Origin: an uncultured Clostridia bacterium | Lineage (GTDB): Bacteria; Bacillota; Clostridia; Christensenellales; CAG-314 | Assembly: GCA_947625185.1 (NCBI GenBank) | Contig: CANQNJ010000001.1 | Span: forward strand, 8,771-72,770 | Length of the DNA: 64,000 nt | Direction of reading: 5' to 3' | Shown here: positions 13,601 through 33,164 of the stretch, in pieces | Layout of the letters: every line of letters starts with the position of its first letter | Position numbering within the stretch: the first letter of the stretch is position 1 | Notes under the pieces: generated by a model | Told to the model about the DNA's origin: nothing | What the model saw: the letters and a program-made list of their open reading frames with translations, nothing else | Databases searched by the model: none | Translations under genes and position numbers: made by a program

Positions 13601-13621
13601 AATCTTCTCCTTTATTCGACA

Positions 13622-13647: not shown

Positions 13648-14521
13648 ATTATATTATTCCGCATTTTCGTAAAAGTCAAGCATTTTACCGCATATTGTTG
13701 AATATTTTTTCAAACGCCGGTCGCAGCGGTGCATAGCAGCGCGGCATCTGTTGGACAACATAGAACAAATTTATCGAGCATATACAGCCGGACAACGCAG
13801 TGCTTTTGTACTTGTGGCATAACAAAATATCTCAATACGAATAAATCTTGCCGAACGGGCGTGCAAGAAAATATCTGTCGCCGAGGATATCGAGAAAACT
13901 GTCTCCGTTTTGCGTAGCCCGACATTTTTGCATACAAAGCAGGTACGAACAGAGAAGGAGTAATGTAAAAAATTTGAAAACGAACGTCAGATCACACTGA
14001 TATAGGGAGAACAGTGCATCCTTGTATGCAAGCGATAAAACATTCCGAAAGAGAAAGACGATGCTAACGGCAGTTTTTATACGTTCGGTATCCCGTTCAC
14101 CTACTTTCTAATAAAAACAATAAATACATTTTCTATGGACGGTATAATGCTGAGAAAAGCAACTTCCGAAATTGAGAATTTCCGAAGTTTTTCCTTTTAC
14201 GCAATTAGCATAAGCAGGATTGTCGGTAAACGTGATATAGCTTGATCAAAAAATACCCTAAAAGTTTTGTTAACTTTTGGTATGGTGGTGGGGGCTACTA
14301 CTAAAAAAACAAAAGAATTTAGTAGCACGCTTTTGAAGATTATTATACTTTATTGCTGTAAATATTTATTTGAGTGTTTTTTTAAACTGCTAAATGGGAG
14401 TTATGGTTTATATTGTTGATGTTTCATATTTACACAGTAATTGATATTCGTTCTTTTTTTTGTACGGAACCGCTTCCGAGGTAATTTTTTTTCGCTCTTT
14501 TGAAAAATGACCGTTGAAACC

Positions 14522-14550
14522 TTGAAATATGATGCGGAATATGCTATAAT
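14522..14550 (+). promoter_or_regulatory. Near-consensus sigma-A-type promoter for the island operon
   Basis: TTGAAA (14522-14527), a 17-nt spacer, then TATAAT (14545-14550). It lies about 47 nt upstream of the first start codon. Confidence 0.55.
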
Positions 14551-14596
14551 AACAATAAAAAATGTTGTTTTTCGTTATTTTTCGAGTTTCGGAGAA

Positions 14597-15649
14597 ATGA
14601 AAATGAAACAAAGATTTGTTTTTATCAGTCATAGTAATCATCCGTCAGATGTGGATATCTGTGAGCGTCTCTATAAGTATCTCGGCGCTTGCGGTGTTTG
14701 TTGTTGGATGGATCGGGAAGATATGCATTCTGGAAGTTGGAAAGAACAGATCGTCGAAAAGCTTCTCGATGCCTCGGCGTTTATACTGGTAGAAAGTATA
14801 CATTCGCTACAATCTCCGCAGGTGAAAAAAGAAATCAATCTTATGACGTCGACGGAGCGCCCTCTTATTCCATTCGCTTTGGACGAATACTGCTTGTCCT
14901 TGGATAAGGAGAAGGGATCAGCTTTATATGAGCTTGGCGTTGGAGAATTACAGACGGTTTTCCTTAATAGATATCCGCAAGAGTCGTATGCATTCGAAAA
15001 GTTGCTTTCCTATCTCCCACCGGAAGTGATATGTTTTAAGAATGATCCTACGGAATTTCATTTTGATTCGGGTGGAAAGGTTTTGGAGAAATATGTCGGG
15101 CATGATTCCTTTGTTGAGATTCCGGGATTTGTACAAGCTATCGCCGACGGCGCTTTTCGAAATAATTCCGATCTTGTAACGGTTTATATCCCGGATTCAG
15201 TTGAAAGAATCGGTCGCAGAGCATTTTTGGGATGCAGCGCATTAAGTCGCGTTGATGGGATGCGGGGTATTATCGATGTGGATAACTCGGCGTTTAATTA
15301 TACAAATTTGGTATCCGGAGACGGAAAGCCGTTTGTTGTCAATGGAATATTATTTGGCAGTGCGTTGGCAAATGATGCCATACTTCCGTCGGCACGCATG
15401 ATTGCCTCGAATGCATTTTACGGATGTGAGGCGGAAGAGTTAATTTTCGCAGATGGGCTAATAAGTGTCGGCGAGGGGGCATTCATGGATTCTTTTCTGC
15501 GTCGCATTGTTTTTCCTGTAACTTTGAAGCGGATTGGAATGCGGGCATTTGCGTCATGCACGAGACTAAAAGAGGTTGTGTTTTTGGGACAAGTGCCCGA
15601 TAATGCTACATTAATTTTTGACCAAGAAAAAATAAAGGAGAAAAAATAA
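14597..15649 (+). CDS. TIR-domain protein fused to BspA-type leucine-rich repeats (LRR_5-like)
   Basis: GGAGAA precedes the ATG at 14597. The N-terminus FVFISHSNHPSDVDICERLYKYLGACGVCCWMDREDMHSGSWKEQIVEKLLDASAFILVESIHSLQSPQVKKE matches the bacterial TIR_2 pattern. The C-terminal half has repeated IPxxVxxIGxxAFxxCxxL units. No signal peptide or TM helix is evident. Confidence 0.75.
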   Translation: MKMKQRFVFISHSNHPSDVDICERLYKYLGACGVCCWMDREDMHSGSWKEQIVEKLLDASAFILVESIHSLQSPQVKKEINLMTSTERPLIPFALDEYCLSLDKEKGSALYELGVGELQTVFLNRYPQESYAFEKLLSYLPPEVICFKNDPTEFHFDSGGKVLEKYVGHDSFVEIPGFVQAIADGAFRNNSDLVTVYIPDSVERIGRRAFLGCSALSRVDGMRGIIDVDNSAFNYTNLVSGDGKPFVVNGILFGSALANDAILPSARMIASNAFYGCEAEELIFADGLISVGEGAFMDSFLRRIVFPVTLKRIGMRAFASCTRLKEVVFLGQVPDNATLIFDQEKIKEKK

Positions 15650-15650
15650 A

Positions 15651-18248
15651 ATGGCGGGAAAAAGAAACATAAACACTCAAGATTTCGAAAAATTTTTGAA
15701 TGAGATTATTAAGGGTATCGATGCGAGAGAAAATACGGAATGGGAGGAAAAGTCCACCAAAATTTCCGAAGATATTCGCTCCGCGCTCGTCCGGCAGTTT
15801 GATACGCTCAAAGGCGATTGTGATACGAGGTTTTTGGACTACTGTAATACAGTGAAAGCGCTCCTTGCCATTTACAATTTCGGTAATCTCAATGTCGATG
15901 AGAGTGAGAACGAGGTTGCGCAGTTGGACAGGCAGAGGATACTGACGGGGGTTTATAATATCATCAAGCATATTGAAGAGATTGGTTACGATATCACGCC
16001 GTATATTAGTTTAGGCGACTGCAAAACCATTTTTGGGACGGCAGATGGAAAAATTGAACCGCTTACTCTTTCTGCCACGACCGTTCTTACTACATTGATT
16101 TATTTTCGTCGGGCGTACAGTCGGAAAATGATAGCCTTTGAAGAGAGTGAGCTCACGGTTAATGGTGTCGATCTTATGCAAAAAACCGTGGAGCATGTTG
16201 CAAAGATTCTCGTCATGATTGTTGATTATATCGAGTCGATGGAATTCGTTGGGTGGGGGTTTACGTTTACATCGCGCGCGGCTACGTTGAACGACACCTA
16301 TTCAGTCGCTGAGGCACTCGGACGTTTCGAGGATGCATTCACGCAGGAAGATGAGATGAAACGCGATGAAGATTTTACCAATGAGGTGGATCGTTACGGC
16401 GAAATCATTTTGCATCATCAGGGACTCATTAATCGCGCGTTTAGTTCTATTTATAAGACGGCGTTCAATGTATATGACCGCGCAAAGACGGAATATGGAC
16501 ACAATATCTTTTATTCCGGTTCCGTGCGCGAAGGCGATTCGGTAAAGTATGTTTATACCAAAACGGATTATGACCAGATTGCAAGCAGTAATCGTTCGTC
16601 AGCACTCTTCAATCCCCTCTATGTCGCCATGATTACGATGTACGGATATAACGAGAAGGAAATCGTCATACGTTGTTTTATGGATAATTACGAGTTGGCG
16701 GCGAAATACTACGAACAATTCGAAACGGAACTTTCCGGCAAGAAAGAACGTCCAAAAAAGGCAAACGGTGATAAAAAAATCACGCTCAGCGAGTATGCCG
16801 CCGAACTGAAATACTTCGTGAAATATCAATGTGATTTTAACGAGGCGGTGAAACCACTTCTCGAAAAGCACCCGCTCATGTCGAACGATTATTCAGATAA
16901 TAAAAAGTGGAGAATGTGGTATGAAACTGCCCGCGTGTTTCAGAAATATCTTGAAACGCAGGAGCCTGAGCTTCTAATGAAAATCGCCGAATATCGCGAT
17001 TATCTTAACGCGACGAAGGATGCTATTGACCAAGTTCAGATCATGTTCCGCAATTTCGATAACAACCAGCGTCTCGGGATCGTCGATACCGATTATATAA
17101 TGTTTTCACAGCTCGATGTCAATACCGAACTCGTCAATATTTCCAAACTGAACAAAGCGAATATTGCGGTCAACTATCTTCGTCCAATGTTGCTCTCTTC
17201 AAAGATAATGATCGTGAATGCGCTTACGAAATATCCGCAATCGGATATTGAAAATCTGTTCAACTCTATTCTCGAAGCGAGATATCTTCAATTCGTCCCC
17301 GAAAAAAACAGTTGGGATTACGAATGGCTGTGGAATTCGGACGGCATAGATATGAACTCAACGGTTCGCAACTGTGAAGCGATAGCATATGATTACTTCG
17401 ATTATTATGAGAAATACGAGCTTGGACTTAGAGCAATCAATGGGATAAGAAGAAGCATTGGCAGCAATGTAATAAATGCAATCGACGTGGAAACAGGTGC
17501 ATTCTCTGTTGAGAAGGCAATGGGAACGGATAATAGTTTAATCAGTTTCAAACGCATTGTACTTGAAGTCACGCGCCAGAACGTCGATTTGATTCGTACG
17601 GTGTACAAGAGCAGGATTGACGAACTTCAAAAAAAGATCGACGGAATGGAAGAGGAACGGGCTCGCGATCTGGCAAATTATAAACAGAAAATGGAGGAGC
17701 AACGCGCGGACCTCCTTGAACAGAGGGATCAAACACTTGAAAAAATCGAGAACAGTCGGGCGATTGGCGATACCATCCGTAAGTGGATTCGTGAAGAAAC
17801 TAAGAGATATCTTACCGAAATGCTTTCGCAGATTGTCTTAAATAAGCTAAATGGTAACAATAAAGTTAAGAACGGCGAGTATCAACTTGATAGTCTTCTT
17901 GCAAGGAATGGCGGCGAATTTATTGACGCAAATATTCCGGCGATTCGCGCTTATGGTGATAACCTTCGTGCAAATATTACAGGAGATGATTCTTCCGAAG
18001 CGAGAGAATATTATCTTAAAACTTTCAAGGAATCTCTTGCACTTCAAGAGCTTTTCGAGTTAGCGTTTAACGGTATTTTCGACTTGGATGACGTAACGAG
18101 CATCCGCCATTATGACGACATGGTTGTGCCCATGTCCGTTAAAAACGAGGTTATCTCTAAGAATTACGCCGAACGTTTGGATGCGCGTAAACACGGAATT
18201 GAATATGAACCGTATATGGAAAAATCAAATGAAGAATTAAAAAAATAA
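15651..18248 (+). CDS. Large hypothetical protein (865 aa), mostly helical with a C-terminal coiled-coil segment
   Basis: The long clean ORF starts 1 nt after the TIR-LRR stop. I found no recognisable catalytic motif. A charged heptad-like stretch RIDELQKKIDGMEEERARDLANYKQKMEEQRADLLEQRDQTLEKIE is present. Confidence 0.7.
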   Translation: MAGKRNINTQDFEKFLNEIIKGIDARENTEWEEKSTKISEDIRSALVRQFDTLKGDCDTRFLDYCNTVKALLAIYNFGNLNVDESENEVAQLDRQRILTGVYNIIKHIEEIGYDITPYISLGDCKTIFGTADGKIEPLTLSATTVLTTLIYFRRAYSRKMIAFEESELTVNGVDLMQKTVEHVAKILVMIVDYIESMEFVGWGFTFTSRAATLNDTYSVAEALGRFEDAFTQEDEMKRDEDFTNEVDRYGEIILHHQGLINRAFSSIYKTAFNVYDRAKTEYGHNIFYSGSVREGDSVKYVYTKTDYDQIASSNRSSALFNPLYVAMITMYGYNEKEIVIRCFMDNYELAAKYYEQFETELSGKKERPKKANGDKKITLSEYAAELKYFVKYQCDFNEAVKPLLEKHPLMSNDYSDNKKWRMWYETARVFQKYLETQEPELLMKIAEYRDYLNATKDAIDQVQIMFRNFDNNQRLGIVDTDYIMFSQLDVNTELVNISKLNKANIAVNYLRPMLLSSKIMIVNALTKYPQSDIENLFNSILEARYLQFVPEKNSWDYEWLWNSDGIDMNSTVRNCEAIAYDYFDYYEKYELGLRAINGIRRSIGSNVINAIDVETGAFSVEKAMGTDNSLISFKRIVLEVTRQNVDLIRTVYKSRIDELQKKIDGMEEERARDLANYKQKMEEQRADLLEQRDQTLEKIENSRAIGDTIRKWIREETKRYLTEMLSQIVLNKLNGNNKVKNGEYQLDSLLARNGGEFIDANIPAIRAYGDNLRANITGDDSSEAREYYLKTFKESLALQELFELAFNGIFDLDDVTSIRHYDDMVVPMSVKNEVISKNYAERLDARKHGIEYEPYMEKSNEELKK

Positions 18249-18260
18249 AAGAGGATGCTT

Positions 18261-19250
18261 ATGAAAATTATCTCATTCAATTCTTATAAGGGTGGTGCTT
18301 GCAGAACGACCACATGTTACAATGCTTTGCCGTATCTTGCTAAGAAACTCGGAGCAACGGCACAGCAACCAATTCTCGTATTTGATATTGATCTTGACAG
18401 TATGGGTCTAACAAGTATTTTCCGCCCCAATTATGGACGACATTCCGAACGACTTGCTTATTCTTCTCGCAATCTGTTCGTCGATGATTTTGAAGAGTTC
18501 AATGAACGTTTAAGACGCGGGTTGGTTAGTTCAGTTAGTGATAAATATTTCAATGAGAAGAATTTTCAGCGTGTCGGCAACGACCTGGGGCTGGAAGATA
18601 ATGAAAGTGTGCTTTTTTGTGGAGCAGACGAAAATGCCGGAACTATTTCGGATGATGATTTTCGCAGTTTCAAGGAGAATTCCCCGTTGCAGACGCTCAT
18701 CATGGAATTAGAATCTTTTGATGAGGGAAATCAGCCTAAGGCGATCGTATTTGACTGTGCTTCGGGCGTCCAAATGTCCACGGTCACGACGTTCTCCTTT
18801 GTGCAGTGTGCAGTTGTATGTATGAGACCATCGCTCCAATTTCGATTGGGAACATATGACTACCTTCGTAATAAAATCCCTCGTGAGATTAAGAAAGCCA
18901 AAAACAATATGCGTCGCGAAATCATTCTCCTGCCTACTTCCGTTGCCGCCAACGTGGTCTCCGAGTCCGATCCGAACTATGCACGAGCTGTGGATGAACT
19001 CGACCGTTTGCGTAGTCGTACAAAAAACAGGATTGTAGACATTGTGGAAGATATTCAAAATGTTGATGAATGCATCCTGGGCTATACGCTCAATTCGGAG
19101 ATGGCGGAAGTTGACGACTTTGGACTTCCCGAAATCGAGCGCTTTAAATGGCAAGAATTTCTTCTTTATAAGGAGGAAGCGCTTACCGAAAAAGAGAAAC
19201 TTTTGAAGAAAAAATATGAACAGCTTGCAGAAATCCTTGCAAGAGATTGA
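18261..19250 (+). CDS. ParA/MinD-like (SIMIBI) protein with a degenerate Walker A
   Basis: KIISFNSYKGGACRTTTCYNALPYLA...ILVFDIDLDS...AIVFDCASG follows the ParA layout, but KGGxGKT is replaced by KGGACRT. The ATG at 18261 is better spaced from GAGGA (18251-18255) than the ATG at 18255. Confidence 0.65.
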   Translation: MKIISFNSYKGGACRTTTCYNALPYLAKKLGATAQQPILVFDIDLDSMGLTSIFRPNYGRHSERLAYSSRNLFVDDFEEFNERLRRGLVSSVSDKYFNEKNFQRVGNDLGLEDNESVLFCGADENAGTISDDDFRSFKENSPLQTLIMELESFDEGNQPKAIVFDCASGVQMSTVTTFSFVQCAVVCMRPSLQFRLGTYDYLRNKIPREIKKAKNNMRREIILLPTSVAANVVSESDPNYARAVDELDRLRSRTKNRIVDIVEDIQNVDECILGYTLNSEMAEVDDFGLPEIERFKWQEFLLYKEEALTEKEKLLKKKYEQLAEILARD

Positions 19251-19268
19251 GTTTTGAAGGAGAAAGAA

Positions 19269-21761
19269 ATGGAACAAAAGATTACCTGGAACAATGAATC
19301 CGAGGAAATAGATTTTTCAAATGACGAGACTGTCATGCAGCTTTTTCTCGATACCGTTCCCGATCCCGTAGCGCGTGCTATCCTTTTTGGCGTCAAAATA
19401 AACCAAAAACCGAACGTTAAGTTGTGCTCGACATACATTAACAGAGGTGGTATTATACGTGTCATGCGTTCGATTGTGAACCTTGCCTATACAATTGCTT
19501 TGACACGTTGGAGGCAATTGGACGCTGCTTCGGCGGATGAAGAGAAGAGTTGGGGCTATCCTGAGCATATTCGCGATTTTAAGGAGGCACGCTATTCAAA
19601 GCTTTTTCAAAGCGCGCTAGGGGATGAGGATATTACCCTCGATCTTCAAATTTTTTCTCTAATTGAGCTTTGGGTAGGGCTCAAAAAGGCTCGAAACCTT
19701 GTAAGCGGTCGTTTTGGATTACTCTTCAATCAGGCAATCGAGGGGGATGACATTGGTCTCACACTCCAACGCGTGCGTGATTTTATCCGTAATGCATCAT
19801 TTAAGCACAATGAATTAAATCCGAAGTATCCCAAAGAGGAGTGTAACAGGCTTTGCTATAAGCTGTTGGATGCTTTTATGATATTCCGAGCGATAAAGAT
19901 TGGTTATCCCGCCGATGTTCGTCTCGATGATGATGAGGATTTTTCCATTGAATACGATCTAAACCCGAAAGAACATAAAATTCTTTATCCAAATAAGTTT
20001 TCCAATGACAAGTTCATTGTCACGGAGGACCAATTGCGTCGTATGCAAGCGAGATTGGCAGGACAAGACGATACTGTCGAATCCTCTCCGCGCATTATGC
20101 TTTATATGCTCGCTGAGACCTCTGCGTTTAACGGAGAGATACAGCATATATATCGTTCTTTTGACGGGGAAAGCGAAGCGAGGATTCGTTCCAATGAAAT
20201 AAAAAATGACGTCTTTTCTTCCGGAAAAGATGTCCTTGATAATGATGAACTTCGGGAAACACGCAAATTTTTGACTTTTAATTATAAAAACTTGCGTGAC
20301 TTTGCGCTAGTTATCAGTGACGCTCTCAAAAATATGCCCCGTAAGCGCCAAGTCCTTTTTTCCATTTGTAAGCAACGCTTTCCAATGATCGTTGCCAATG
20401 TGCAACGGTACGATGCCTCGGATATTTATTGGGACAATATCGTTACGCTTATGCTAGTGGAGATGGGTTTCAGCGATTTTTTGGAGCAGATCTTAGACGA
20501 CGAATCTATTTTCTATAATATTATGAAAAATATCGGTTGGCGTTGTAGCGGCAGAGAGAGTGTTGAGCGCCTCAACCAATATGAACGAGAGGTGGCTGCA
20601 ATTGAACAGGATGCGAAACAAAGCAAACGTTCTTTGAATGCGAAATATATCCAACTTCGCGTATGCAAAGTGCTCCAAGCGATGAAGTTCATCGGAGATA
20701 ACGATGATGGCTTGCCTAATCCCTTCGAAGAGAACCTTACATCAAAATATGATAATATCTGTAATTGCCTTAATGTTCTGAAACAATATAAGGATGAGCG
20801 GGTAAATATCCATGAGTGTACAGTCGCCAAAAGGGCTTTGATTGAAATTTTCAGCAATACGTTCTGTTTCCTTCAAATCTTTTATAAGGGACTCGACAGC
20901 TATGCGAAGAAAAAAATCGATCTTATGGAAGAAAAACCTTCTTCCGGAATGTTGATGGTTCGTGGAGAAACGACAATGGGTGAGGACGATCATCAAGAAG
21001 AGGATAGCAAGAACAGTGAACGCGAATGGATTGGGAAATACCGCAAAGAATGTTTGGGAGCATTTAAAAGGGGCGCGAGAGAACAATATGAAAAGATCAA
21101 GAAAAATACTCTCAGTCAGCTCTATGATGGTTTTTGTGCGCTCTGCGGACAGTATAATAGTTTTGCCATGAACGGAAGTTTTAATATCAGTGAAGAGGCG
21201 CGTGATCTTAAATTCCTTATTACACGGAATTACATTTGCGATGTTTCTAAATTGAAATTTTTTGCAAGCATCAAACTCGCTAATGGTGAAGAATCGGATA
21301 TATTTCGGATGCTGGAAGGATTTTCTGACAAATATTATACGGATCCTTCTTATCTTGAATGGCTCGACTATTTTCGTGATTTCTTTTTGTTCCTTATTTA
21401 TAATGAAGATTACGACCGAAAGGGGTTGTGGAACGAGGATAATGGCAAGTTGAAAGATAAGGACTGTGATCCGATTTATCCTTACGTTGTCTCCTATTAC
21501 AGTGAAAATATCGACCGCGATCAGTTGAAAAAATGCACATACCGCGTTCCGATTCCGACGGAAAATTCAAACGACGGGGAGTCGAGCATAGTTGTTACTT
21601 TACTGACAGAAGAGAACTATCGTCCTGGAACTTATTTTTGCATTCCTCTTCGCTATGGTTCGAGTGAAAGCTGGTGGATTAATCCCTTTTTGATCCCTAC
21701 GCGTGTGATTGATGACATCGCGAATGAGATCAAAACAGAAAATAAAAAAATAGTTAGGTAA
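19269..21761 (+). CDS. Large hypothetical protein (about 830 aa) with an HEPN-like RNxxxxH motif
   Basis: AAGGAG at 19257-19262 is followed 6 nt later by the ATG at 19269. There is no recognisable enzymatic domain apart from LQRVRDFIRNASFKHNEL (R-x5-H) near residue 180. Confidence 0.65.
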   Translation: MEQKITWNNESEEIDFSNDETVMQLFLDTVPDPVARAILFGVKINQKPNVKLCSTYINRGGIIRVMRSIVNLAYTIALTRWRQLDAASADEEKSWGYPEHIRDFKEARYSKLFQSALGDEDITLDLQIFSLIELWVGLKKARNLVSGRFGLLFNQAIEGDDIGLTLQRVRDFIRNASFKHNELNPKYPKEECNRLCYKLLDAFMIFRAIKIGYPADVRLDDDEDFSIEYDLNPKEHKILYPNKFSNDKFIVTEDQLRRMQARLAGQDDTVESSPRIMLYMLAETSAFNGEIQHIYRSFDGESEARIRSNEIKNDVFSSGKDVLDNDELRETRKFLTFNYKNLRDFALVISDALKNMPRKRQVLFSICKQRFPMIVANVQRYDASDIYWDNIVTLMLVEMGFSDFLEQILDDESIFYNIMKNIGWRCSGRESVERLNQYEREVAAIEQDAKQSKRSLNAKYIQLRVCKVLQAMKFIGDNDDGLPNPFEENLTSKYDNICNCLNVLKQYKDERVNIHECTVAKRALIEIFSNTFCFLQIFYKGLDSYAKKKIDLMEEKPSSGMLMVRGETTMGEDDHQEEDSKNSEREWIGKYRKECLGAFKRGAREQYEKIKKNTLSQLYDGFCALCGQYNSFAMNGSFNISEEARDLKFLITRNYICDVSKLKFFASIKLANGEESDIFRMLEGFSDKYYTDPSYLEWLDYFRDFFLFLIYNEDYDRKGLWNEDNGKLKDKDCDPIYPYVVSYYSENIDRDQLKKCTYRVPIPTENSNDGESSIVVTLLTEENYRPGTYFCIPLRYGSSESWWINPFLIPTRVIDDIANEIKTENKKIVR

Positions 21762-21768
21762 ACATAAT

Positions 21769-22587
21769 ATGAACCATATTATGATCGACGCTTACCGAGG
21801 CAACGAAAGCCGTTTAGATGATATAAAGTCTGTGAACGCCACTCTTAATGAGATTGTACTCGCATTGCATTTGAATGCCGTGATGCCGCCTTTTCTTTTA
21901 CCGTACTATTACGCAAAAGATAGTGAGGACGACGGTATCAGTGCTTTCACTATATTGGAAGGCGGACATATCACTCTTCATACTTTTCCCAAGAGGGGAT
22001 GCGTTTTTGCGGATCTCCTCTATGATGGATATTACGACGAAGCTAAATTAAAAGGAATTCTAAAAACCGCTTTCAGGTGTGTTCCGGTGCCGGACGATCC
22101 GATCCGTACGGAAAGACGGTACCTTGATACGACTATTGACGAGTCACATGTTTGGAAAGGTGGTATGTCGGGAAAGGATTTCGGACCTCATACAATCGCA
22201 AAAATAGATAATGTCGATGTTACTTTGGAAGAGATTTTTGATTTGTTAGACAATATTCCGCGCGAAATCGGCATGTTGCCTATCAGTCGTCCTTATGTTG
22301 TGAAGTCTCATCTTGAAAATCCGACTTACTTTTCAGGTATTGTGCTGATCGCGCAAAGCCATATCGCATTTCATTACAGTGTGCAGGAACGGATATTATT
22401 CTGTGACGCATTTAGTTGCTCGTTTTATAAAAGTGAAAATTTTGTGGAATTTTTGAACCGCCGTTATGGTGATTTTCTGCATATGACAATTATTCGTGGC
22501 AGCAAACATGAGCAAATGATAGACAGCCGTGAATCAAAAGTGAAACAATTGAGCGGTTGGCTTGGTAATTTTAATAAGAGAGGATGA
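21769..22587 (+). CDS. Tandem S-adenosylmethionine-decarboxylase-fold (SpeH/SpeD-like, pyruvoyl-enzyme fold) protein
   Basis: Half 1, GISAFTILEGGHITLHTFPKRGCVFADLLYDG, aligns to the SpeH core [29 protein letters not shown] but lacks the Ser and Cys. Half 2, FSGIVLIAQSHIAFHYSVQERILFCDAFSCS, keeps both Ser and Cys. Confidence 0.65.
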   Translation: MNHIMIDAYRGNESRLDDIKSVNATLNEIVLALHLNAVMPPFLLPYYYAKDSEDDGISAFTILEGGHITLHTFPKRGCVFADLLYDGYYDEAKLKGILKTAFRCVPVPDDPIRTERRYLDTTIDESHVWKGGMSGKDFGPHTIAKIDNVDVTLEEIFDLLDNIPREIGMLPISRPYVVKSHLENPTYFSGIVLIAQSHIAFHYSVQERILFCDAFSCSFYKSENFVEFLNRRYGDFLHMTIIRGSKHEQMIDSRESKVKQLSGWLGNFNKRG

Positions 22588-22590
22588 ACA

Positions 22591-23670
22591 ATGGATTGTA
22601 AGCGATTGACCCAAATAAAAGCGGGCTTGTTGTGCTATGGTGTAAATGTCGATAAAAAGGTGGGCGAAGAACTTCTACGCTCCCGTCCGTATTTCTATGA
22701 TAAGGGATTTGTACACGCCGTCAATGCCAATATAGCAGGTAGCAACGTGTGTGTCAGCGTCGCCGAATGTTTTAGCGGGGTATCGCCATATCATCTTTAT
22801 GGCAAGGACGAAGAATTTTATATAAGAACAGAAGAGGATGAAAGGATCCCAATAAAACTGTTTGACGATCTGCCTAAGACAGGTACCGTGATCGACAATT
22901 TGGCGCGTCCTCATTCTGATTACGTGATCTCAATTTGGCCGTCACTTGTATGCTGTTTTGACAGACCGGGCGCCAAGTGCAAGTTTTGCAGCATCAAGCC
23001 GACGGGTAGTCAGACAGTTGTTCCGAGCAAAGAAGTAATTGAAGGGCTCCATGCCTTGTTTGCAATCACCGATAGATATTCGATCAATATCGGTGGTGGG
23101 ACATACGGGAGTCCTGACAGAATGGCAGATTATCTTACGGAAATCATAGCCGGTATTCGTACCTTTACCCAAACACCGATTTCGGTTGAATTGGCGCCAC
23201 CCGCTGATTTATATCGTATTGAAGCGTTGCGGTCGGCGGGTGCATCCTCGCTCATTATGAATTTGGAGATTGCGGATCCTGAGTTGCGCAAGAAAATCTG
23301 TCCGGGGAAATCCTCGATATCATATGATCATTATTACAAAAGTTACCGCGTTGCAGTCAATACATTCGGCAGAGGAAATGTTTCATGTGTGTTAATTGCC
23401 GGGTTACAGCCAAATGAAAATATCGTCTCAGAGTGCGAAAAATTGACCGACATTGGTGTGATCCCCACAGTCATACCATTTAAGGCGATGGATGACTGCG
23501 AATATCACGATAGGAACAACTGTTCTCCGGAAGATCTCCTTTGGATCAGCGCGCGGGTGGGGTCGATGCTTCGCCAAAAGGAACTTTCGCCCAAAATGCA
23601 GGAGGGGTGCACGAAATGCGGTGGGTGCTCCCTCGAAACAAATTATTACGAAATGTTATTTACAGCGTGA
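22591..23670 (+). CDS. Radical-SAM-like Fe-S protein (non-canonical Cys motif)
   Basis: CCFDRPGAKCKFCS shows C-x7/8-C-x2-C instead of C-x3-C-x2-C. A GGG segment INIGGGTYGS and a TIM-barrel-like alternation are present. A C-terminal CTKCGGCS (C-x2-C-x2-C) gives a second cluster motif. Confidence 0.5.
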   Translation: MDCKRLTQIKAGLLCYGVNVDKKVGEELLRSRPYFYDKGFVHAVNANIAGSNVCVSVAECFSGVSPYHLYGKDEEFYIRTEEDERIPIKLFDDLPKTGTVIDNLARPHSDYVISIWPSLVCCFDRPGAKCKFCSIKPTGSQTVVPSKEVIEGLHALFAITDRYSINIGGGTYGSPDRMADYLTEIIAGIRTFTQTPISVELAPPADLYRIEALRSAGASSLIMNLEIADPELRKKICPGKSSISYDHYYKSYRVAVNTFGRGNVSCVLIAGLQPNENIVSECEKLTDIGVIPTVIPFKAMDDCEYHDRNNCSPEDLLWISARVGSMLRQKELSPKMQEGCTKCGGCSLETNYYEMLFTA

Positions 23671-23673
23671 ATT

Positions 23674-25767
23674 ATGATTCTTTATGATAAGCGCGCAATG
23701 AATGATGTCTCTGTCGTCGGAGGTAAGGGGCTGGGACTCGCAAAGTTGATAAATTATGGTTGTGAAGTTCCGGATTTCTTTATTGTAACGGCGGGAACGG
23801 TTTTGGATGACAAATTTGCAGTGGAACTGATGGAGTTCGCCGCAAAATTGCAGTGTGACTCGTTTTGCGTGCGTTCAAGCAGCGTGTTCGAGGATAGCGT
23901 CGATAATAGTTTTGCAGGTCAATATTTAACTATTTCGAATGTTGGCATTAAAGATTTGCTCGATGCAATCGGGAAGGTGGCGGGTTCTGCCAATACGTCG
24001 ACTGTTGAATTGTATTCTCGTCACTTTCACATGCATCCTTGTGAAATCGCGATTATTGTTCAAAAGCAGATCGCGGGGAAGTATTCCGGTGTCGTATTTA
24101 CGCGCTCATTCTCTTCCGACGAGGAGATTGTGATTGAAAGCGTGGTGGGAAGCGGGGAATTGCTCGTTAGCGGCAGGGTAATTCCATCCAAGGTTGTCGT
24201 TCGTAAGGACTCATCGTATATGGATGTACCTTACGGTTCGGAACTTGTATGTAGTGCGATTAGGCTTGAAAAGGCGGAACGCTGTCCGCTTGATATCGAA
24301 TGGACTTATTCCGATAAACTTTATTTTTTGCAGATGCGGCCGATTACCGTATACGGGGATACATTACCGGAGATTCCGAAAAGAAATTGGAATTTTTATG
24401 TCTATCGGGATTTCTGTCCGCTTGTACACTCTGTGCAAGCCTGTGCTTCCGAGAAGGAAATCCAAGAGAGGCTTTTTGGCTTTTCGGTGCCTATTGCAGA
24501 AGGGATATTGGCGAATGGCAGAGAATTTTATTCCGAAGAAAACGATATTGCCGTTACTCAGATATGGAAAAAACTCGATAAGGACGATTTTTTTAAAAGG
24601 TATATAGGTAAAATCAAGGCGCAAGTATGGCGGACAAAACGATATGCAGACTGCATAAGAGAAAATGGTCGTGTTGGGCTTACGAGTACGCAACTTTTTT
24701 CGGCTTACAGAAAAGCGATTGAAAAATATATCGAGAGTTATGTTCCGCTTATGATGAGACCTGATGATTATCTGTTGGAGACAATGCGATCGATAGTGGG
24801 TGACGAAACAGAAGAAATTTTGGATGTTTTGACGCCTGTATGGAAGAAAACATTTTATTCCGATGAAAAAGCCGATTTTTTGCGGGCGAAGATAAGAAAC
24901 GATGCCGATGCTTACATTGAAAAATATGAATGGACTTGCGCTCCGCTCGGAAAAACGGTCAATCATATGACGAAAGAGAGCGTCGAACGGCGTTTTAGCA
25001 GGTTGACGATGGAGCAGGCGGAAGAGTCGCTTTGTTGTATAGAAGAAAAAAGGAACGAACGGAGGAAAAGGTTTTTTTCCTTATTGAAAGCAGAGAATTT
25101 GCCTAATGAACTGAGGCGGTTGTTTTTGCTGATTGCCGAGTTTATCTATCTACGCACTTATACGGCGGAAAACAGTGATCGCCTATTTTTCTATATTCGT
25201 GAAAATATTCTGTCTGCAATTGCGGAGCAAACGGGTGTTTCTCTTACGGAATTGTTATATATGACTTATGATGAAATTGCAGAGATGGAAAATGGTCATA
25301 AACCGAATCGTGGGACGATCGCAAAGCGCAAATGCGGAGAACTTATTCTTTTTTTCAATGGAAATCATCGTGCCTATTATGGAAATTCCGTTGGTTCTCT
25401 CCTTGCAGAATTAATGCCGTACGAGGAAACGGAAGAGACTGTCCTTTCGGGCGATATCGCATGCTCGGGTCAAGTCTGTGGACGCGTTTGCATCGTACGT
25501 GATTTTTGTGAAGTAGAAAAGGCAAAAGAAGGCGATATCATTGTGACTTCGATGACGACGCCGGAACTTGTTACCGCGCTTGAAAAGGCTAGCGGAATTA
25601 TTACGGACGAGGGCGGTATCACTTGCCACGCCGCAATTCTCTCTCGCGAGTTTGGGGTGCCTTGTCTTGTGGGTACTAAATTCGCAACTCGTGCGCTTCG
25701 CGATGGAATGAAAGTTCGGTTGGACTGCATTCACGGAAAGGTAGAAAAATTGTCAAATGATATTTGA
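23674..25767 (+). CDS. PEP-synthase/PPDK-like kinase: N-terminal ATP-grasp (PPDK_N) plus C-terminal phosphohistidine swivel domain, with no PEP/pyruvate TIM barrel
   Basis: VGGKGLGLAKL and FCVRSSSVFEDSVDNSFAGQYLTISNV give the PPDK_N signature. IVTSMTTPELVTALEKASGIITDEGGITCHAAILSREFGVPCLVG gives the mobile domain with the catalytic His. About 350 aa of uncharacterised middle region separates them. Confidence 0.8.
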   Translation: MILYDKRAMNDVSVVGGKGLGLAKLINYGCEVPDFFIVTAGTVLDDKFAVELMEFAAKLQCDSFCVRSSSVFEDSVDNSFAGQYLTISNVGIKDLLDAIGKVAGSANTSTVELYSRHFHMHPCEIAIIVQKQIAGKYSGVVFTRSFSSDEEIVIESVVGSGELLVSGRVIPSKVVVRKDSSYMDVPYGSELVCSAIRLEKAERCPLDIEWTYSDKLYFLQMRPITVYGDTLPEIPKRNWNFYVYRDFCPLVHSVQACASEKEIQERLFGFSVPIAEGILANGREFYSEENDIAVTQIWKKLDKDDFFKRYIGKIKAQVWRTKRYADCIRENGRVGLTSTQLFSAYRKAIEKYIESYVPLMMRPDDYLLETMRSIVGDETEEILDVLTPVWKKTFYSDEKADFLRAKIRNDADAYIEKYEWTCAPLGKTVNHMTKESVERRFSRLTMEQAEESLCCIEEKRNERRKRFFSLLKAENLPNELRRLFLLIAEFIYLRTYTAENSDRLFFYIRENILSAIAEQTGVSLTELLYMTYDEIAEMENGHKPNRGTIAKRKCGELILFFNGNHRAYYGNSVGSLLAELMPYEETEETVLSGDIACSGQVCGRVCIVRDFCEVEKAKEGDIIVTSMTTPELVTALEKASGIITDEGGITCHAAILSREFGVPCLVGTKFATRALRDGMKVRLDCIHGKVEKLSNDI

Positions 25768-25859: not shown

Positions 25860-26897
25860 TCAGCTGTGGGCGACGGGGTCGTAGCCGAGCAGGATATCCG
25901 CGACGCGATCGGTGCCGTAAAGGTCTCGTTGCGCGCGCTGTTTGGCGCGAATGGCTTCGCGGTTGTCGTAAGCGGCGTTGACGGCACGATACAGCTCGTC
26001 AGCGAGGTTGTCTTCGCTTACCGTCAGTCCGCAGCCTCGCTCGGTGAACCACTTGGCGTTCAGCGTCTGTTCGCCGCGCGACTGCTTGGTAAGCGGCACG
26101 GTAACGAAGGGTACTTGCGCAAGTGTCAGCTCTGCCAGGCTGTTGGCTCCCGCCCGAGTGAGACATACGTCCGCCGCGGCAAATACGTCGTTAATGTTGG
26201 AGATGAATTCCGCTTCCCGCACAAATTCGCACCCGATTCGTTTGTTCTTGCCGCATATTACAAAAATATTAAAGCGCTCCGCAAGTTTGGGACAGGCGGC
26301 GACGGCTTCGTTCAATGCTTTTGCGCCGAGACTTCCGCCTGTAACGAGCAGTATCGGCTTGTTCCCGTCAAAGCCCGTCGTGGCGAGCCCGCGTGCTTTG
26401 TCTCCGTGCATTATTCCTTCGCGTATTATTACGCCCACCGGTCGAGCTTTCGGATCGCACGGAAATGCGGCGAGATACGCGTCTGCAAATCGCGCCGACA
26501 GCTTGTTGGCAAGTCCCACGCTCATATCGCTCTCGTGTATCACGGTAGGAATGTGCAATTGTTTGCCCGCTATCGTCACAGGCAATCCGACGTAGCCGCC
26601 TTTGCTGAATATCACGTCGGGGCGTATGCGTTTCAGATGATTCTTAGCTTCGTTGACGCTTTTTGTCAGGCGGAAGGGCAGCAGCAGATTGGATAATGTC
26701 GCCTTTCGCTGCAATTTGTGGGCGGTGACGGTGCAATATTTTTTTATTTTCCCCTCATTGACGTATTTTTCCGTCAATTGTTTTTCCATTCCGTTTGTTC
26801 CGATGTAGTATATCTCGTTGCCTTGCAGCTTGTCGATGAGCGCCAGATTGGGCGTGACGTGTCCCGCGGTTCCGCCGCCCGTAAATACAATTCTCAT
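25860..26897 (-). CDS. murG: Undecaprenyldiphospho-muramoylpentapeptide beta-N-acetylglucosaminyltransferase MurG
   Basis: MRIVFTGGGTAGHVTPNLAL, GGSLGA and a C-terminal glycosyltransferase 28 pattern are present. I prefer the start at ATG 26897 over the 388 aa maximal ORF. Confidence 0.9.
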   Translation of the reverse strand: MRIVFTGGGTAGHVTPNLALIDKLQGNEIYYIGTNGMEKQLTEKYVNEGKIKKYCTVTAHKLQRKATLSNLLLPFRLTKSVNEAKNHLKRIRPDVIFSKGGYVGLPVTIAGKQLHIPTVIHESDMSVGLANKLSARFADAYLAAFPCDPKARPVGVIIREGIMHGDKARGLATTGFDGNKPILLVTGGSLGAKALNEAVAACPKLAERFNIFVICGKNKRIGCEFVREAEFISNINDVFAAADVCLTRAGANSLAELTLAQVPFVTVPLTKQSRGEQTLNAKWFTERGCGLTVSEDNLADELYRAVNAAYDNREAIRAKQRAQRDLYGTDRVADILLGYDPVAHS

Positions 26898-26961
26898 ATG
26901 GGTAGTGTATGCTTTTTGTACAAAAAAAGTCCTTGCAATGCTCAAAATCGACAAAATCAAG

Positions 26962-26984
26962 GATACTATTCGTGACATAGTATC
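26962..26984. repeat. Hairpin/palindrome family copy A (GATACTAT-TCGTGAC-ATAGTATC)
   Basis: The same TACTAT-TCGTGAC-ATAGTA core occurs at 33612-33636 and 41667-41685. This copy lies in the divergent murG/hydrolase intergenic region. Confidence 0.8.
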
Positions 26985-27194
26985 GCAAATATACCCAAAA
27001 CAAGCCTGTCGGGACATTCGTCGCACAATCTGCCCACCGACTCACCGCGTATTTCGTCGAAAAAGGCGCCCTGCGCCCGTAGGGTCAGGCACGCGTGTGC
27101 CGACCGTCGAACATCCTGCCGACCTATCCGTTTCCTTGACTTTTTGTTCGCGATGGAATACAATATTGCTATCTATCGTATAAGGCGGTGCGCA

Positions 27195-28175: not shown

Positions 28176-28262
28176 GACGTGTTTGTCGGCGCTTTGCCTT
28201 TGCGCGGTATTATTGCAAGCCGATTCCGTCACGACGACGGGATCGGCAATTTTTCGTCAAAA

Positions 28263-28280
28263 TTTGCATAAATATGCAAA
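28263..28280. promoter_or_regulatory. Perfect palindrome TTTGCATA-aa-TATGCAAA upstream of the topoisomerase operon (candidate operator)
   Basis: The arms are 8 bp with a 2-nt spacer. A half-site-like ATTTGCATAAAC recurs about 30 nt downstream. Confidence 0.35.
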
Positions 28281-28389
28281 CGCTATGTATAAAAATAACC
28301 TGATTTGCATAAACATACAAATTATTCTGTGTAAACTTTTTTTGATTTGAAATTTTGTCATTTTCGCTGTATAAATATAAAAATTTCTC

Positions 28390-28418
28390 TTGCAATGCGA
28401 GTTTATTTATGATATAAT
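28390..28418 (+). promoter_or_regulatory. Candidate sigma-A promoter for parE/parC
   Basis: TTGCAA (28390-28395), a 17-nt spacer, then TATAAT (28413-28418). This leaves an approximately 140-nt leader. Confidence 0.5.
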
Positions 28419-28561
28419 AATTATGTTCGGAGATTTTGTCCGAAGCGCGGCATCTTGCCCGCGGCGCTGGATAGTGAACGTGCTGTTCGATTGCAAATTT
28501 ATGCGTCGCAAAAGGCACTTCGGACGTCAACCAACGACAACACTCATCGGAGGAAAAACAA

Positions 28562-30523: not shown

Positions 30524-30536
30524 AGAGGTACGATAT

Positions 30537-33026: not shown

Positions 33027-33050
33027 CGCTCGGGTGATTCCGCGCAAAAC

Positions 33051-33115: not shown

Positions 33116-33164
33116 AACAAGGTCGGAATTTAATTAAAAAACAAGTATAGAAGAATGATTCATT

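What the first reader, a model, noticed from the sequence alone, without database searches (positions are those of the whole stretch)
23674..25767. PEP-synthase-like dikinase lacking the PEP/pyruvate barrel (rifampicin-phosphotransferase-like architecture) as the last gene of the operon
The N-terminal ATP-grasp (PPDK_N) and the C-terminal swivel phosphohistidine domain (GGITCHAAI, His codon 25627-25629) are clear. Between them lie about 350 aa with no recognisable motif, and there is no TIM-barrel PEP-utilising domain. Enzymes with this layout transfer the beta-phosphate of ATP via His to a non-pyruvate acceptor bound by the variable middle domain; rifampicin phosphotransferase is one example. 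By inference, it may phosphorylate the product of the two upstream enzymes, a nucleotide, or a phage or host macromolecule.
Basis: partly seen in the sequence, partly recalled or inferred. Interest (0 to 1): 0.6.

Follow-up and report, generated by a model that had tools for sequence, protein, structure and literature searches.

The report
Rifampicin-kinase-like enzyme in seven-gene cassette
The gene encodes an ATP-driven phosphate-transfer enzyme built like rifampicin phosphotransferase rather than PEP synthase, and it always travels with a radical-SAM enzyme and a SpeD-like decarboxylase as an undescribed three-enzyme unit, here inside a seven-gene cassette of unknown, possibly defensive, role in gut Clostridia.

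Summary
ORF 23674-25767 (697 aa) has a PPDK_N ATP-grasp domain, a C-terminal phosphohistidine swivel domain (His652, codon 25627-25629) and no PEP/pyruvate barrel. One correction: the middle ~350 aa are not motif-free. They are a shortened, all-helical homologue of the acceptor-binding domain of rifampin phosphotransferase (hhalign E 3e-92; best Foldseek hit 5hv1, E 3e-29).

ATP-site residues, the catalytic His and the equivalent of RPH Arg666 are conserved. Glu667 is replaced by an invariant Thr, and acidic motifs (RPDDYL, LRTxTAExSD) mark a separate subfamily.

The gene is last in a tightly packed, low-GC, seven-gene cassette: TIR-LRR, orphan, ParA-like ATPase, orphan, tandem SpeD-like decarboxylase, MSMEG_0568-like radical SAM, dikinase. 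The cassette recurs in 13 other gut Clostridia loci at different chromosomal sites.

Elsewhere the decarboxylase and radical-SAM genes are fused and followed only by the dikinase, so genes 5-7 form a self-contained module. More distant relatives of the decarboxylase sit beside agmatinase or agmatine deiminase genes. That points, by inference only, to an arginine/agmatine-type amine as the acceptor.

The acceptor and the cassette's role remain unproven. No publication or PADLOC model describing it was found.

The parts
14507..15649 (+). Gene 1: TIR domain + BspA-type LRR protein. The true start is probably the ATG at 14597.
   Evidence: Pfam TIR_2 1.9e-15 and LRR_5 2.1e-24. PADLOC TIR models match weakly. 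Glu79 is invariant in the S..S.EV..E motif of 13 homologues, and the homologues start near M31.
15651..18248 (+). Gene 2: 865-aa orphan protein with a conserved N-terminal ~600 aa and a variable coiled-coil-like C-terminus.
   Evidence: No Pfam, NCBIfam or PADLOC family. No PDB profile hit. Conserved in every cassette. A distant homologue is present in the variant cassettes L120 and L140.
18255..19250 (+). Gene 3: ParA/MinD-like P-loop ATPase with a KGGxxR variant Walker A motif.
   Evidence: NCBIfam NF047398 AAA_KGGVGR 8.6e-12, below its cut-off. 31-34% identical homologues in the variant cassettes.
19254..21761 (+). Gene 4: 835-aa orphan protein.
   Evidence: No family hit. 77 homologue clusters, all of cassette type. 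AF2 pLDDT 78. No fold match in PDB or BFVD.
21769..22587 (+). Gene 5: tandem SpeD/AdoMetDC-like protein. Repeat 1 is degenerate (GGH). Repeat 2 keeps Ser197-His198 and Cys217 and is a putative pyruvoyl decarboxylase.
   Evidence: Pfam AdoMet_dc 4.9e-21, two stretches. Alignments A3 and A10. Relatives lie next to agmatinase or agmatine deiminase genes.
22591..23670 (+). Gene 6: variant radical-SAM enzyme related to the MSMEG_0568 family. Cys121-x8-Cys130-x2-Cys133 plus a C-terminal CxxCxxC.
   Evidence: NF045502 scores 144 bits against a cut-off of 125. TIGR04043 scores 163 bits against a cut-off of 304. Invariant cysteines are seen in A4. It occurs fused to the gene-5 homologue in P0196 and P0198-P0200.
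23674..25767 (+). Gene 7 (the finding): RPH/PigC-class His-swivel phosphotransferase lacking the PEP/pyruvate domain.
23674..24357 (+). Gene 7 ATP-grasp domain (aa 1-~228), shorter than the ~315 aa of RPH. Lys18, Arg67, Glu73/Asp74, Asp207/Glu209 and Gln220/Arg222 are invariant.
   Evidence: Correspondence to RPH Lys22 and Arg117.
24358..25428 (+). Gene 7 all-helical acceptor-binding domain (aa ~229-585), homologous to the RIF-binding domain. Subfamily motifs are RPDDYL (24757-24774) and LRTYTAENSD (25150-25179). Arg494 is at 25153-25155 and Thr495 at 25156-25158.
   Evidence: RPH Arg666/Glu667 roles from PMC4844700.
25429..25767 (+). Gene 7 phosphohistidine swivel domain. Catalytic His652 codon at 25627-25629.

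Best explanation
Gene 7 encodes a compact member of the rifampin-phosphotransferase / prodiginine-ligase (PigC) class of PEP-synthase-like enzymes.

Proposed mechanism, inferred from the characterised family:
- His652 on the C-terminal swivel domain takes the beta-phosphate, releasing AMP and Pi.
- The swivel domain then docks on the helical middle domain. There Arg494, the equivalent of RPH Arg666, positions the phosphate for transfer to an oxygen of a bound small molecule.

Shown here: the enzyme is one leg of a fixed three-enzyme module. The other two are a tandem SpeD-like, probably pyruvoyl-dependent, decarboxylase (gene 5) and an MSMEG_0568-like radical-SAM enzyme (gene 6).

Inferred: the acceptor is the amine or amino-acid-derived product of those two enzymes, most plausibly an arginine/agmatine-type cationic compound. 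The phosphate either stays on the final product or activates an oxygen for condensation, as in PigC.

In this genome the module is bolted onto a TIR-LRR / orphan / ParA-like ATPase / orphan block. The result is a horizontally mobile seven-gene cassette whose biological role is unknown. A conflict or defence role is the leading guess.
For: Enzyme class:
- Pfam finds PPDK_N and PEP-utilizers and no barrel.
- The PpsA, PigC, RedH and RPH models of NCBIfam all match partially.
- hhalign against RPH-type proteins gives E 3e-92 over 688 columns.
- The best Foldseek matches are RPH-Lm structures, E 3e-29, against 1e-10 for PPDK.
- Residues matching RPH Lys22, Arg117, His825 and Arg666 are invariant.

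The three-enzyme module:
- Genes 5, 6 and 7 are adjacent in all 13 other cassette loci, and stay linked where the order is rearranged (L020, L021).
- SpeD-like + radical-SAM fusion proteins are followed by an overlapping dikinase gene that is 31% identical to gene 7 and carries the same mid-domain motifs. Genes 1-4 are absent there.
- A third clade (P0056) again pairs the dikinase with a radical-SAM gene of a different family and an amine oxidase.

The amine theme:
- The closest non-cassette relatives of gene 6 pair with a GNAT acetyltransferase.
- More distant tandem SpeD-like genes sit beside agmatinase in 9 loci, or beside agmatine deiminase.
- SpeD homologues are known to have become arginine or ornithine decarboxylases (PMC10407285).
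- The residues conserved in the acceptor domain are charged and acidic (Asp364, Asp365, Glu284, Glu499, Asp502).

Mobility:
- GC is 0.40-0.45 against ~0.50 in the flanks.
- Neighbours differ in every locus.
Against: - No activity was measured, so the acceptor is inferred from gene context alone.
- RPH Glu667, essential in RPH, is an invariant Thr here, and the Gln336/337 loop is deleted. The second half-reaction may therefore differ.
- Gene 5 of the cassette clade has Gln-Ser instead of the canonical Glu-Ser processing site, so self-processing is unproven.
- The tandem SpeD-like relatives that sit next to agmatinase have no radical-SAM or dikinase neighbour. Their substrate need not be that of gene 5.
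- Evidence for a defence role is thin. There is no PADLOC system match. Neighbours are mostly housekeeping genes, with one SIR2-HerA pair.
- I could not inspect model coordinates, so I cannot say that the acidic motifs actually line the acceptor pocket.
Confidence: 0.6

Rival explanations
1. It is an ordinary PEP synthase or pyruvate phosphate dikinase of central metabolism whose barrel domain was simply missed.
For: The best NCBIfam and PDB sequence hits are named PEP synthase. Public sources call some relatives 'pyruvate, water dikinase'.
Against: - There is no PF02896 hit.
- PpsA models score 198 bits against a cut-off of 598.
- The His domain is C-terminal, not central.
- The middle region is all-helical in a confident model and aligns with the RPH central domain.
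- The protein ends 45 residues after the catalytic His.
Confidence: 0.01
2. It is an antibiotic-inactivating kinase, a rifamycin phosphotransferase or a similar resistance enzyme that phosphorylates an exogenous drug.
For: Its closest solved structures and its overall architecture are those of RPH-Lm. RPH-type enzymes are widespread and largely unexplored (PMC4844700).
Against: - The RPH equivalog model NF041857 scores 134 bits against a cut-off of 999.
- Glu667 is replaced by Thr, Lys670 by Ala, and the Gln336/337 loop is deleted.
- The conserved acceptor-domain residues are acidic and polar rather than hydrophobic.
- It is strictly linked to a radical-SAM enzyme and a decarboxylase, including gene fusions, which a stand-alone resistance enzyme would not need.
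Confidence: 0.04
3. It is a PigC-like ligase rather than a kinase. The phosphate transiently activates a carbonyl or hydroxyl oxygen of one substrate. The amine made by the gene-5 decarboxylase then displaces it, giving a C-N linked conjugate, possibly on a nucleobase or another metabolite.
For: - The PigC and RedH models match as well as the RPH models do.
- PigC/HapC use the same three domains and a phosphorylated intermediate (PMC13534948).
- The partner enzymes are amine-generating or amine-processing in all three clades.
Against: No second substrate-forming gene is conserved in the minimal two-gene module. PigC and RedH cut-offs are missed by a factor of ten. The idea is purely inferential.
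Confidence: 0.2
4. It is a protein- or nucleic-acid-directed kinase. It may autophosphorylate and regulate partner proteins, as VadK of M. tuberculosis does, or modify the large orphan proteins, the TIR protein, or DNA/RNA.
For: A PPDK-derived enzyme lacking the barrel acts as a regulatory histidine kinase (PMC13400623). The cassette encodes two large orphan proteins and a ParA-like ATPase that could be targets or scaffolds.
Against: Orthologous dikinases with the same acceptor-domain motifs work in two-gene modules that lack genes 1-4. The acceptor domain is homologous to a small-molecule-binding domain.
Confidence: 0.12
5. The cassette is not a defence system at all. It would be a metabolic or cell-biological unit, for example specialised polyamine or secondary-metabolite synthesis organised by a ParA-like ATPase. 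This rival concerns the cassette's role, not the enzyme class of gene 7.
For: - Gene-5 relatives sit in agmatinase or agmatine-deiminase contexts typical of polyamine synthesis.
- Neighbours of the cassette are mostly housekeeping genes.
- No PADLOC system matches.
- The two-gene module lies among housekeeping genes.
Against: - A TIR domain with a conserved Glu is present.
- The GC content is atypical and the insertion sites vary.
- A SIR2-HerA system adjoins the cassette in L001, and a Dodola/PDC-M37-like AAA+ protein adjoins the variant cassette.
- The accessory enzymes are swapped in a modular way, as in defence islands.
Confidence: 0.3

Closest known systems
Rifampin phosphotransferase (RPH-Lm; PDB 5HV1, 5FBS; NCBIfam NF041857)
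   Same: Same domain order: ATP-grasp, helical acceptor domain, C-terminal His swivel. Homologous over the whole length. The equivalents of Lys22, Arg117, His825 and Arg666 are conserved.
   Different: - 697 aa against 867 aa, with both the ATP-grasp and the acceptor domain shortened.
- Glu667 is Thr, Lys670 is Ala, and the Gln336/337 loop is absent.
- It carries acidic subfamily motifs.
- It scores seven-fold below the family cut-off.
- It is always linked to radical-SAM and decarboxylase genes.
Prodiginine ligases PigC / RedH / HapC
   Same: Same three-domain architecture and His-mediated phosphotransfer to a non-pyruvate acceptor. Partial model matches of E 1e-40.
   Different: Far below the cut-offs (140 bits against 1300). 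No prodigiosin genes nearby. A condensing activity is only hypothetical here.
PEP synthase (PpsA) / pyruvate phosphate dikinase
   Same: Homologous ATP-grasp and swivel domains. The swivel domain is ~48% identical to that of archaeal PpsA.
   Different: No PEP/pyruvate TIM barrel. The His domain is terminal rather than central. A different middle domain.
Two-component aryl kinases (phenylphosphate synthase-type; HpeHI of Rhodococcus, PDB 9GOJ)
   Same: ATP-grasp domain of the same superfamily, used to phosphorylate a small non-pyruvate acceptor (PMC12167813 listed).
   Different: Those enzymes are split into separate subunits and act on phenolic substrates in catabolic clusters.
Neofunctionalised SpeD homologues (SpeDA arginine decarboxylase, SpeDC ornithine decarboxylase, SpeD1-SpeD2 fusions; PMC10407285). 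This is the comparison for partner gene 5.
   Same: AdoMet_dc fold, tandem arrangement of ~270 aa, one degenerate and one Ser-His-Cys-bearing repeat. Relatives lie next to agmatinase or agmatine deiminase genes.
   Different: In the published fusions the N-terminal repeat is the active AdoMetDC. Here the N-terminal repeat is the degenerate one. The cassette clade has Gln-Ser at the processing site, and its partners are a radical-SAM enzyme and a dikinase rather than polyamine synthases.
MSMEG_0567/0568 (GNAT + radical SAM) pair of the Nit1C-type cluster. This is the comparison for partner gene 6.
   Same: Gene 6 matches TIGR04043 at 8e-48. Its ~50% identical relatives are translationally coupled to a GNAT gene.
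   Different: Below the family cut-off. The partner is a decarboxylase instead of an acetyltransferase. The function of the reference family is itself unknown.

Membership tests
PEP synthase / PPDK (PpsA, PpdK) | C-terminal PEP/pyruvate-binding TIM barrel (PF02896) | tested here: not met
   No Pfam hit, even when the middle region alone is scanned at E<=10. The model shows an all-helical middle domain, and the protein ends after the swivel domain.
PEP synthase / PPDK (PpsA, PpdK) | Score above the curated equivalog cut-off (NF005057, TIGR01418) | tested here: not met
   198 bits against 598, and 190 bits against 740.
PEP synthase / PPDK (PpsA, PpdK) | ATP-grasp nucleotide domain plus phosphohistidine swivel domain | tested here: met
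   PF01326 at 2.4e-35 and PF00391 at 1.3e-23. His652 is invariant.
Rifamycin-inactivating phosphotransferase (RPH) | Domain order: ATP-grasp, central acceptor-binding domain, C-terminal His swivel | tested here: met
   hhalign E 3e-92 over 688 columns. Foldseek 5hv1 E 3e-29 over the whole length.
Rifamycin-inactivating phosphotransferase (RPH) | Catalytic His825 and ATP-site Lys22 / Arg117 | tested here: met
   His652, Lys18 and Arg67 are invariant in 47 sequences and across three clades. Roles are taken from PMC4844700.
Rifamycin-inactivating phosphotransferase (RPH) | Arg666-Glu667 dyad, essential for the second phosphotransfer | tested here: not met
   The Arg is conserved as Arg494, but the Glu is an invariant Thr495, and Lys670 is Ala497.
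Rifamycin-inactivating phosphotransferase (RPH) | Score above the NCBIfam equivalog cut-off (NF041857, NF000283) | tested here: not met
   134 bits against 999, and 101 bits against 1700.
Rifamycin-inactivating phosphotransferase (RPH) | Phosphorylation of rifamycins | not testable with these tools
   Needs an enzyme assay or an MIC test.
Prodiginine ligase (PigC/RedH) | Score above the equivalog cut-off, and a prodigiosin gene-cluster context | tested here: not met
   140 bits against 1300, and 137 bits against 1350. The neighbours are unrelated to pig/red genes.
AdoMetDC/SpeD pyruvoyl decarboxylases (gene 5) | AdoMet_dc fold with a processing Ser, a His and a catalytic Cys | tested here: inconclusive
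   Pfam 4.9e-21. Repeat 2 keeps Ser197, His198 and Cys217, invariant in 30 sequences. Repeat 1 lacks the Ser. The cassette clade has Gln-Ser rather than Glu-Ser. TIGR03330 scores 51 bits against a cut-off of 76. Self-processing was not tested.
Radical SAM superfamily (gene 6) | Three-cysteine cluster motif (canonical CX3CX2C) and a family model above its cut-off | tested here: met
   A variant Cys121-x8-Cys130-x2-Cys133 motif is invariant. NF045502 'variant_rSAM' scores 144 bits against a cut-off of 125. The narrower TIGR04043 scores 163 bits against 304, which is not met.
Known anti-phage systems with TIR proteins (Thoeris, TIR-SAVED CBASS, TIR-Argonaute) as modelled in PADLOC | Partner proteins of the system present (ThsA, SAVED/CD-NTase, pAgo) | tested here: not met
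   Only the TIR domain of gene 1 matches PADLOC models, and weakly. Genes 2 and 4-7 match nothing, and gene 3 only touches PDC-M28B.

The most novel reading that the evidence does not exclude
The seven-gene cassette is a new kind of conflict (anti-phage or anti-plasmid) system. A TIR-LRR protein and a ParA-like ATPase, with two fold-orphan proteins, would be coupled to on-demand synthesis of a previously unknown phosphorylated, arginine/agmatine- or SAM-derived small molecule. The pathway that makes it would be radical SAM + pyruvoyl decarboxylase + His-swivel dikinase. The molecule would serve as an antiviral metabolite, or as a signal or substrate for the TIR domain. The accessory chemistry would be interchangeable, since variant cassettes carry an agmatine deiminase instead.
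Probability: 0.2. Interest if true: 0.85.

Novelty: new variant of a known kind. Interest (0 to 1): 0.55.

Why it matters
RPH/PigC-type enzymes form a large class, and only a handful of acceptors are known: rifamycins, a bipyrrole aldehyde and phenolic compounds. This subfamily has its own conserved acceptor-site motifs. It also has obligatory partners, a radical-SAM enzyme and an amine-handling enzyme, to which it is even indirectly fused. That gives a well-defined handle for finding a new acceptor and probably a new phosphorylated metabolite. The minimal two-gene version is an ideal object for expression and metabolomics. If the full cassette proves to be an immune system, it would link TIR signalling with radical-SAM and polyamine-type chemistry in abundant but uncultured gut Clostridia. 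It would also add two large proteins with no detectable structural relatives.

Tried and rejected
- **Genome scan with the single protein.** Exact-pattern search found nothing. The alignment-based scan worked.
- **PF27448.** This is the model recorded for the central domain of RPH-type relatives. It is absent from the local Pfam copy, so that test could not be run. I replaced it with hhalign.
- **Promoter and terminator scans** across 13-26.2 kb gave counts at the shuffle expectation. They say nothing about an internal promoter for gene 7.
- **Rfam** on 12.5-27 kb: no hit.
- **Flanking repeats, tRNA or integrase** around the island: none found.
- **Phage GenBank and IMG/VR:** no cassette relatives, only generic PpsA/RPH-like hits.
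- **Literature searches** for the gene combination, for KGGVGR, for Pfam names and for PEP-utilising + radical SAM clusters found nothing relevant. The Nit1C radical-SAM enzyme is uncharacterised.
- **Genes 2 and 4:** no PDB profile hits. The gene-4 model has no fold match in PDB or BFVD.
- **Distant RPH-type loci L022 and L023** have unrelated contexts and were dropped.
- **The radical-SAM gene next to P0056** is not homologous to gene 6.
- **First metagenome query** was too diverse to run.
- **SAM decarboxylation as the obvious role of gene 5** is considered and set aside as unproven. Relatives of gene 5 sit with agmatinase or agmatine deiminase, and SpeD homologues are often arginine or ornithine decarboxylases.
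Full report
**1. The observation**

The ORF at 23674-25767 (+) encodes 697 aa.
- Pfam finds PPDK_N (PF01326, E 2.4e-35) and the mobile PEP-utilizers domain (PF00391, E 1.3e-23, residues 618-688). It finds no PEP/pyruvate barrel (PF02896).
- GGITCHAAI is present, and the His codon lies at 25627-25629.
- An AlphaFold2 model built on 47 homologues is confident (pLDDT 90.8, pTM 0.87). Residues ~288-555 are almost purely helical, which is incompatible with a TIM barrel.
- Seven co-directional ORFs from 14507 to 25767 are separated by 1-7 nt, with 3 nt before gene 7. The next gene downstream, murG-like, is convergent.

The description is therefore correct.

**2. Correction on the middle region**

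The middle ~350 aa are recognisable.
- A profile of the gene-7 family aligns with a profile of RPH-type proteins over 688 columns, at probability 100 and E 3e-92. The alignment includes the central domain, although that domain is shortened.
- The best structural matches of the whole model are the Listeria rifampin phosphotransferase entries 5hv1, 5hv3 and 5fbs (E 3e-29 to 5e-27). PPDK follows at 1e-10.
- In the protein database the RPH-type relatives carry PF27448. The local Pfam copy lacks that model.
- The ATP-grasp domain is also compact, ~228 aa against ~315 aa.

**3. Catalytic residues**

The RPH-Lm study shows that Lys22, Arg117 and Thr136 serve the ATP half-reaction. His825 carries the phosphate, and the Arg666-Glu667 pair is essential for the second transfer (PMC4844700).
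- In the gene-7 family Lys18, Arg67, Glu73/Asp74, Asp207/Glu209, Gln220/Arg222 and His652 are invariant. They correspond one-to-one with the invariant residues of the RPH-type alignment.
- Arg666 is kept as Arg494. Glu667 is an invariant Thr495, Lys670 is Ala497, and the loop carrying Gln336/337 is deleted.
- Two motifs are invariant across three separate clades of gene-7-like proteins: SYVPLMMRPDDYL (352-366) and FIYLRTYTAENSD (490-502).
- All curated family models are missed by wide margins: PpsA 198/598 bits, PigC 140/1300, RPH 134/999.

My conclusion is that the enzyme is catalytically competent and belongs to the RPH/PigC architectural class. It is neither a PpsA, nor an RPH in the strict sense, nor a PigC.

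**4. The cassette**

The seven genes are as follows.

| Gene | Product |
|---|---|
| 1 | TIR_2 + BspA-type LRR protein, with an invariant Glu in its TIR domain |
| 2 | 865-aa orphan |
| 3 | ParA/MinD-like ATPase with a KGGxxR Walker-A variant |
| 4 | 835-aa orphan |
| 5 | Tandem AdoMet_dc-like protein |
| 6 | Variant radical-SAM enzyme (Cys-x8-Cys-x2-Cys plus a C-terminal CxxCxxC; NF045502 above cut-off, MSMEG_0568 family below) |
| 7 | The dikinase |

- GC is 0.40-0.45 inside the cassette and ~0.50 outside.
- The window is chromosomal. It carries gyrB/gyrA-like genes, a murG-like gene, a CadA-type ATPase and ABC transporters.
- The same seven genes, in the same order, occur in 13 other distinct loci. 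All come from animal-gut Clostridia MAGs (Christensenellaceae, Candidatus Coproplasma and unclassified Clostridiales), at 39-59% gene-7 identity.
- In L021 (33% identity) genes 1-6 are inverted and gene 7 is divergent from gene 1. In L020 gene 6 is convergent with gene 7. Linkage therefore survives rearrangement.
- Flanking genes differ from locus to locus and are mostly housekeeping. One locus has an adjacent SIR2-HerA system, and four loci have RyR-domain proteins nearby.
- No PADLOC system matches. No phage or IMG/VR relative was found, and no paper describing this combination.

**5. Genes 5-7 are a self-contained module**

- A search with gene 6 found ~600-aa proteins in which a tandem AdoMet_dc region is fused to the radical-SAM domain, at 53% identity to gene 6.
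- In two unrelated genomic contexts (L086/L087 and L091-L094) this fusion gene overlaps a 773-780-aa PPDK_N + swivel gene. That gene is 31% identical to gene 7 and carries the same acceptor-domain motifs.
- Genes 1-4 are absent from both contexts.
- A third clade (P0056, an actinobacterial-like soil contig) pairs the dikinase with a non-homologous radical-SAM gene and a flavin amine oxidase.

This is Rosetta-stone and co-occurrence evidence that gene 7 works with genes 5 and 6.

**6. What the partners suggest**

- The closest non-cassette relatives of gene 6 (~50% identity) are translationally coupled to a GNAT acetyltransferase. This resembles the uncharacterised MSMEG_0567/0568 pair.
- Gene 5 belongs to a small family of ~265-aa tandem SpeD-like proteins, with 28 representatives at E<=1e-30 among 1.84 billion.
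- In that family repeat 1 has lost the processing Ser. Repeat 2 keeps an invariant Ser-His and Cys.
- More distant members (33-41% identity) have no radical-SAM or dikinase neighbour. In nine low-GC loci they follow an Arginase-family (agmatinase) gene.
- SpeD homologues are documented to have become pyruvoyl arginine or ornithine decarboxylases, including tandem fusions (PMC10407285).
- Two variant cassettes (L120, L140) carry, in order, a PAD_porph (agmatine-deiminase-like) gene, a gene-2-like gene, a gene-3-like gene, a gene-4-like gene and the tandem SpeD-like gene. They have no TIR, radical-SAM or dikinase gene. L140 has a ClpB-like AAA+ protein that matches the PADLOC DolB and PDC-M37B models.

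Genes 2-5 therefore form a shared core, and the accessory enzymes are exchangeable. By inference, the chemistry revolves around an arginine/agmatine-type amine. The conserved acidic residues of the gene-7 acceptor domain fit a cationic acceptor. I could not check where they lie in three dimensions.

**7. Mechanism proposed**

- Shown here: the domain content, the conserved catalytic residues, and the obligatory partnership with genes 5 and 6.
- Inferred from the characterised family: ATP is converted to AMP + Pi, and the beta-phosphate is carried by His652 to the acceptor site at Arg494.
- Inferred from context: the acceptor is the small-molecule product of the decarboxylase and the radical-SAM enzyme. 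It would either be phosphorylated as the end product or be activated for condensation, as in PigC (PMC13534948).
- Not shown: the acceptor, self-processing of gene 5, and any defence phenotype.

**8. Rivals**

- An ordinary PpsA is excluded.
- A rifamycin-resistance kinase is unlikely, given the failed cut-offs, the altered dyad and the obligatory partners.
- A macromolecule-directed kinase of the VadK type (PMC13400623) is not excluded. It fits poorly with two-gene modules that lack any candidate protein target.
- Whether the cassette is defensive or metabolic remains open.

**9. Verdict**

Gene 7 is a new subfamily, a variant, of a known enzyme class. It sits in a three-enzyme module and a seven-gene cassette, and I found no description of either. 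Interest is moderate to good, because the minimal module makes the open question of the acceptor directly testable.

Noticed in passing
L120:1881-8798 and L140:2146-9876: Variant cassettes from low-GC metagenome contigs. The gene order is PAD_porph (agmatine-deiminase-like), gene-2-like, ParA-like gene-3-like, gene-4-like, tandem SpeD-like. L140 then has a ClpB-like AAA+ protein matching PADLOC DolB and PDC-M37B. They carry no TIR, radical-SAM or dikinase gene.
   Followed up: partly
L086:2666-6782; L091:2585-6686: A minimal two-gene module: a fused tandem SpeD-like + radical-SAM protein (~600 aa), overlapping a 773-780-aa gene-7-like dikinase. It occurs in two different chromosomal contexts. 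In L091 it is preceded by an LGT-SHOCT protein and a divergent XRE regulator.
   Followed up: partly
L088:9481-12764; L090:9594-11065; L175:5617-7109: The ~50% identical relatives of the gene-6 radical-SAM enzyme are each coupled to a small GNAT acetyltransferase. In one locus an LNT_N/CN_hydrolase gene follows, and in another two ABC exporters follow. This resembles the uncharacterised MSMEG_0567/0568 (Nit1C-type) pair.
   Followed up: partly
L122:7093-8795 and eight other loci (L119, L123, L124, L131-L133, L135, L136): An Arginase-family (agmatinase) gene lies directly upstream of a tandem SpeD-like gene. This is probably an undescribed tandem form of pyruvoyl arginine decarboxylase, with the N-terminal repeat degenerate. 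That is the reverse of the published SpeD1-SpeD2 fusions.
   Followed up: partly
L006:7682-12948: A 784-aa gene-7-like dikinase (31% identity) lies next to a non-homologous radical-SAM gene and a flavin amine oxidase. The locus is a transposase- and integrase-rich soil contig with an Lsr2 gene, which suggests an actinobacterial origin.
   Followed up: partly
window 13647-14506: About 860 bp without a convincing ORF or Rfam hit lie between the ArsR-like regulator and gene 1. The annotated first ATG of gene 1 (14507) is probably not the start, because homologues begin near the ATG at 14597.
   Followed up: partly
window 11129-13642 (- strand): A heavy-metal unit directly upstream of the island: a CadA-type P-type ATPase (11129-13021), a 72-aa protein with a CxxC metal-binding motif (13025-13243), and an ArsR-like regulator (13247-13642).
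   Followed up: no
L003:1-973, L008:12152-14425 and two further cassette loci: Large RyR-domain (PF02026) proteins lie next to the cassette in four of 13 loci, sometimes with 690-740-aa orphan proteins. Three neighbouring proteins match the PADLOC 'mad8' model.
   Followed up: no
window 34000-42000: A second stretch of lower GC (0.41-0.47). It encodes a class-II fructose-bisphosphate aldolase, a 430-aa protein with no Pfam hit, a fused double ABC permease, a MalK-like ATPase and a metallo-beta-lactamase-fold protein.
   Followed up: no
window 25860-33200 and elsewhere in the ~0.52 GC parts: Long ORFs appear on both strands over the same DNA, for example 28544-30301(-) against 28562-30523(+), and 30507-33197(-) against 30537-33026(+). 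The + strand ORFs are gyrB/gyrA-like, so the antisense ones are presumably spurious.
   Followed up: partly
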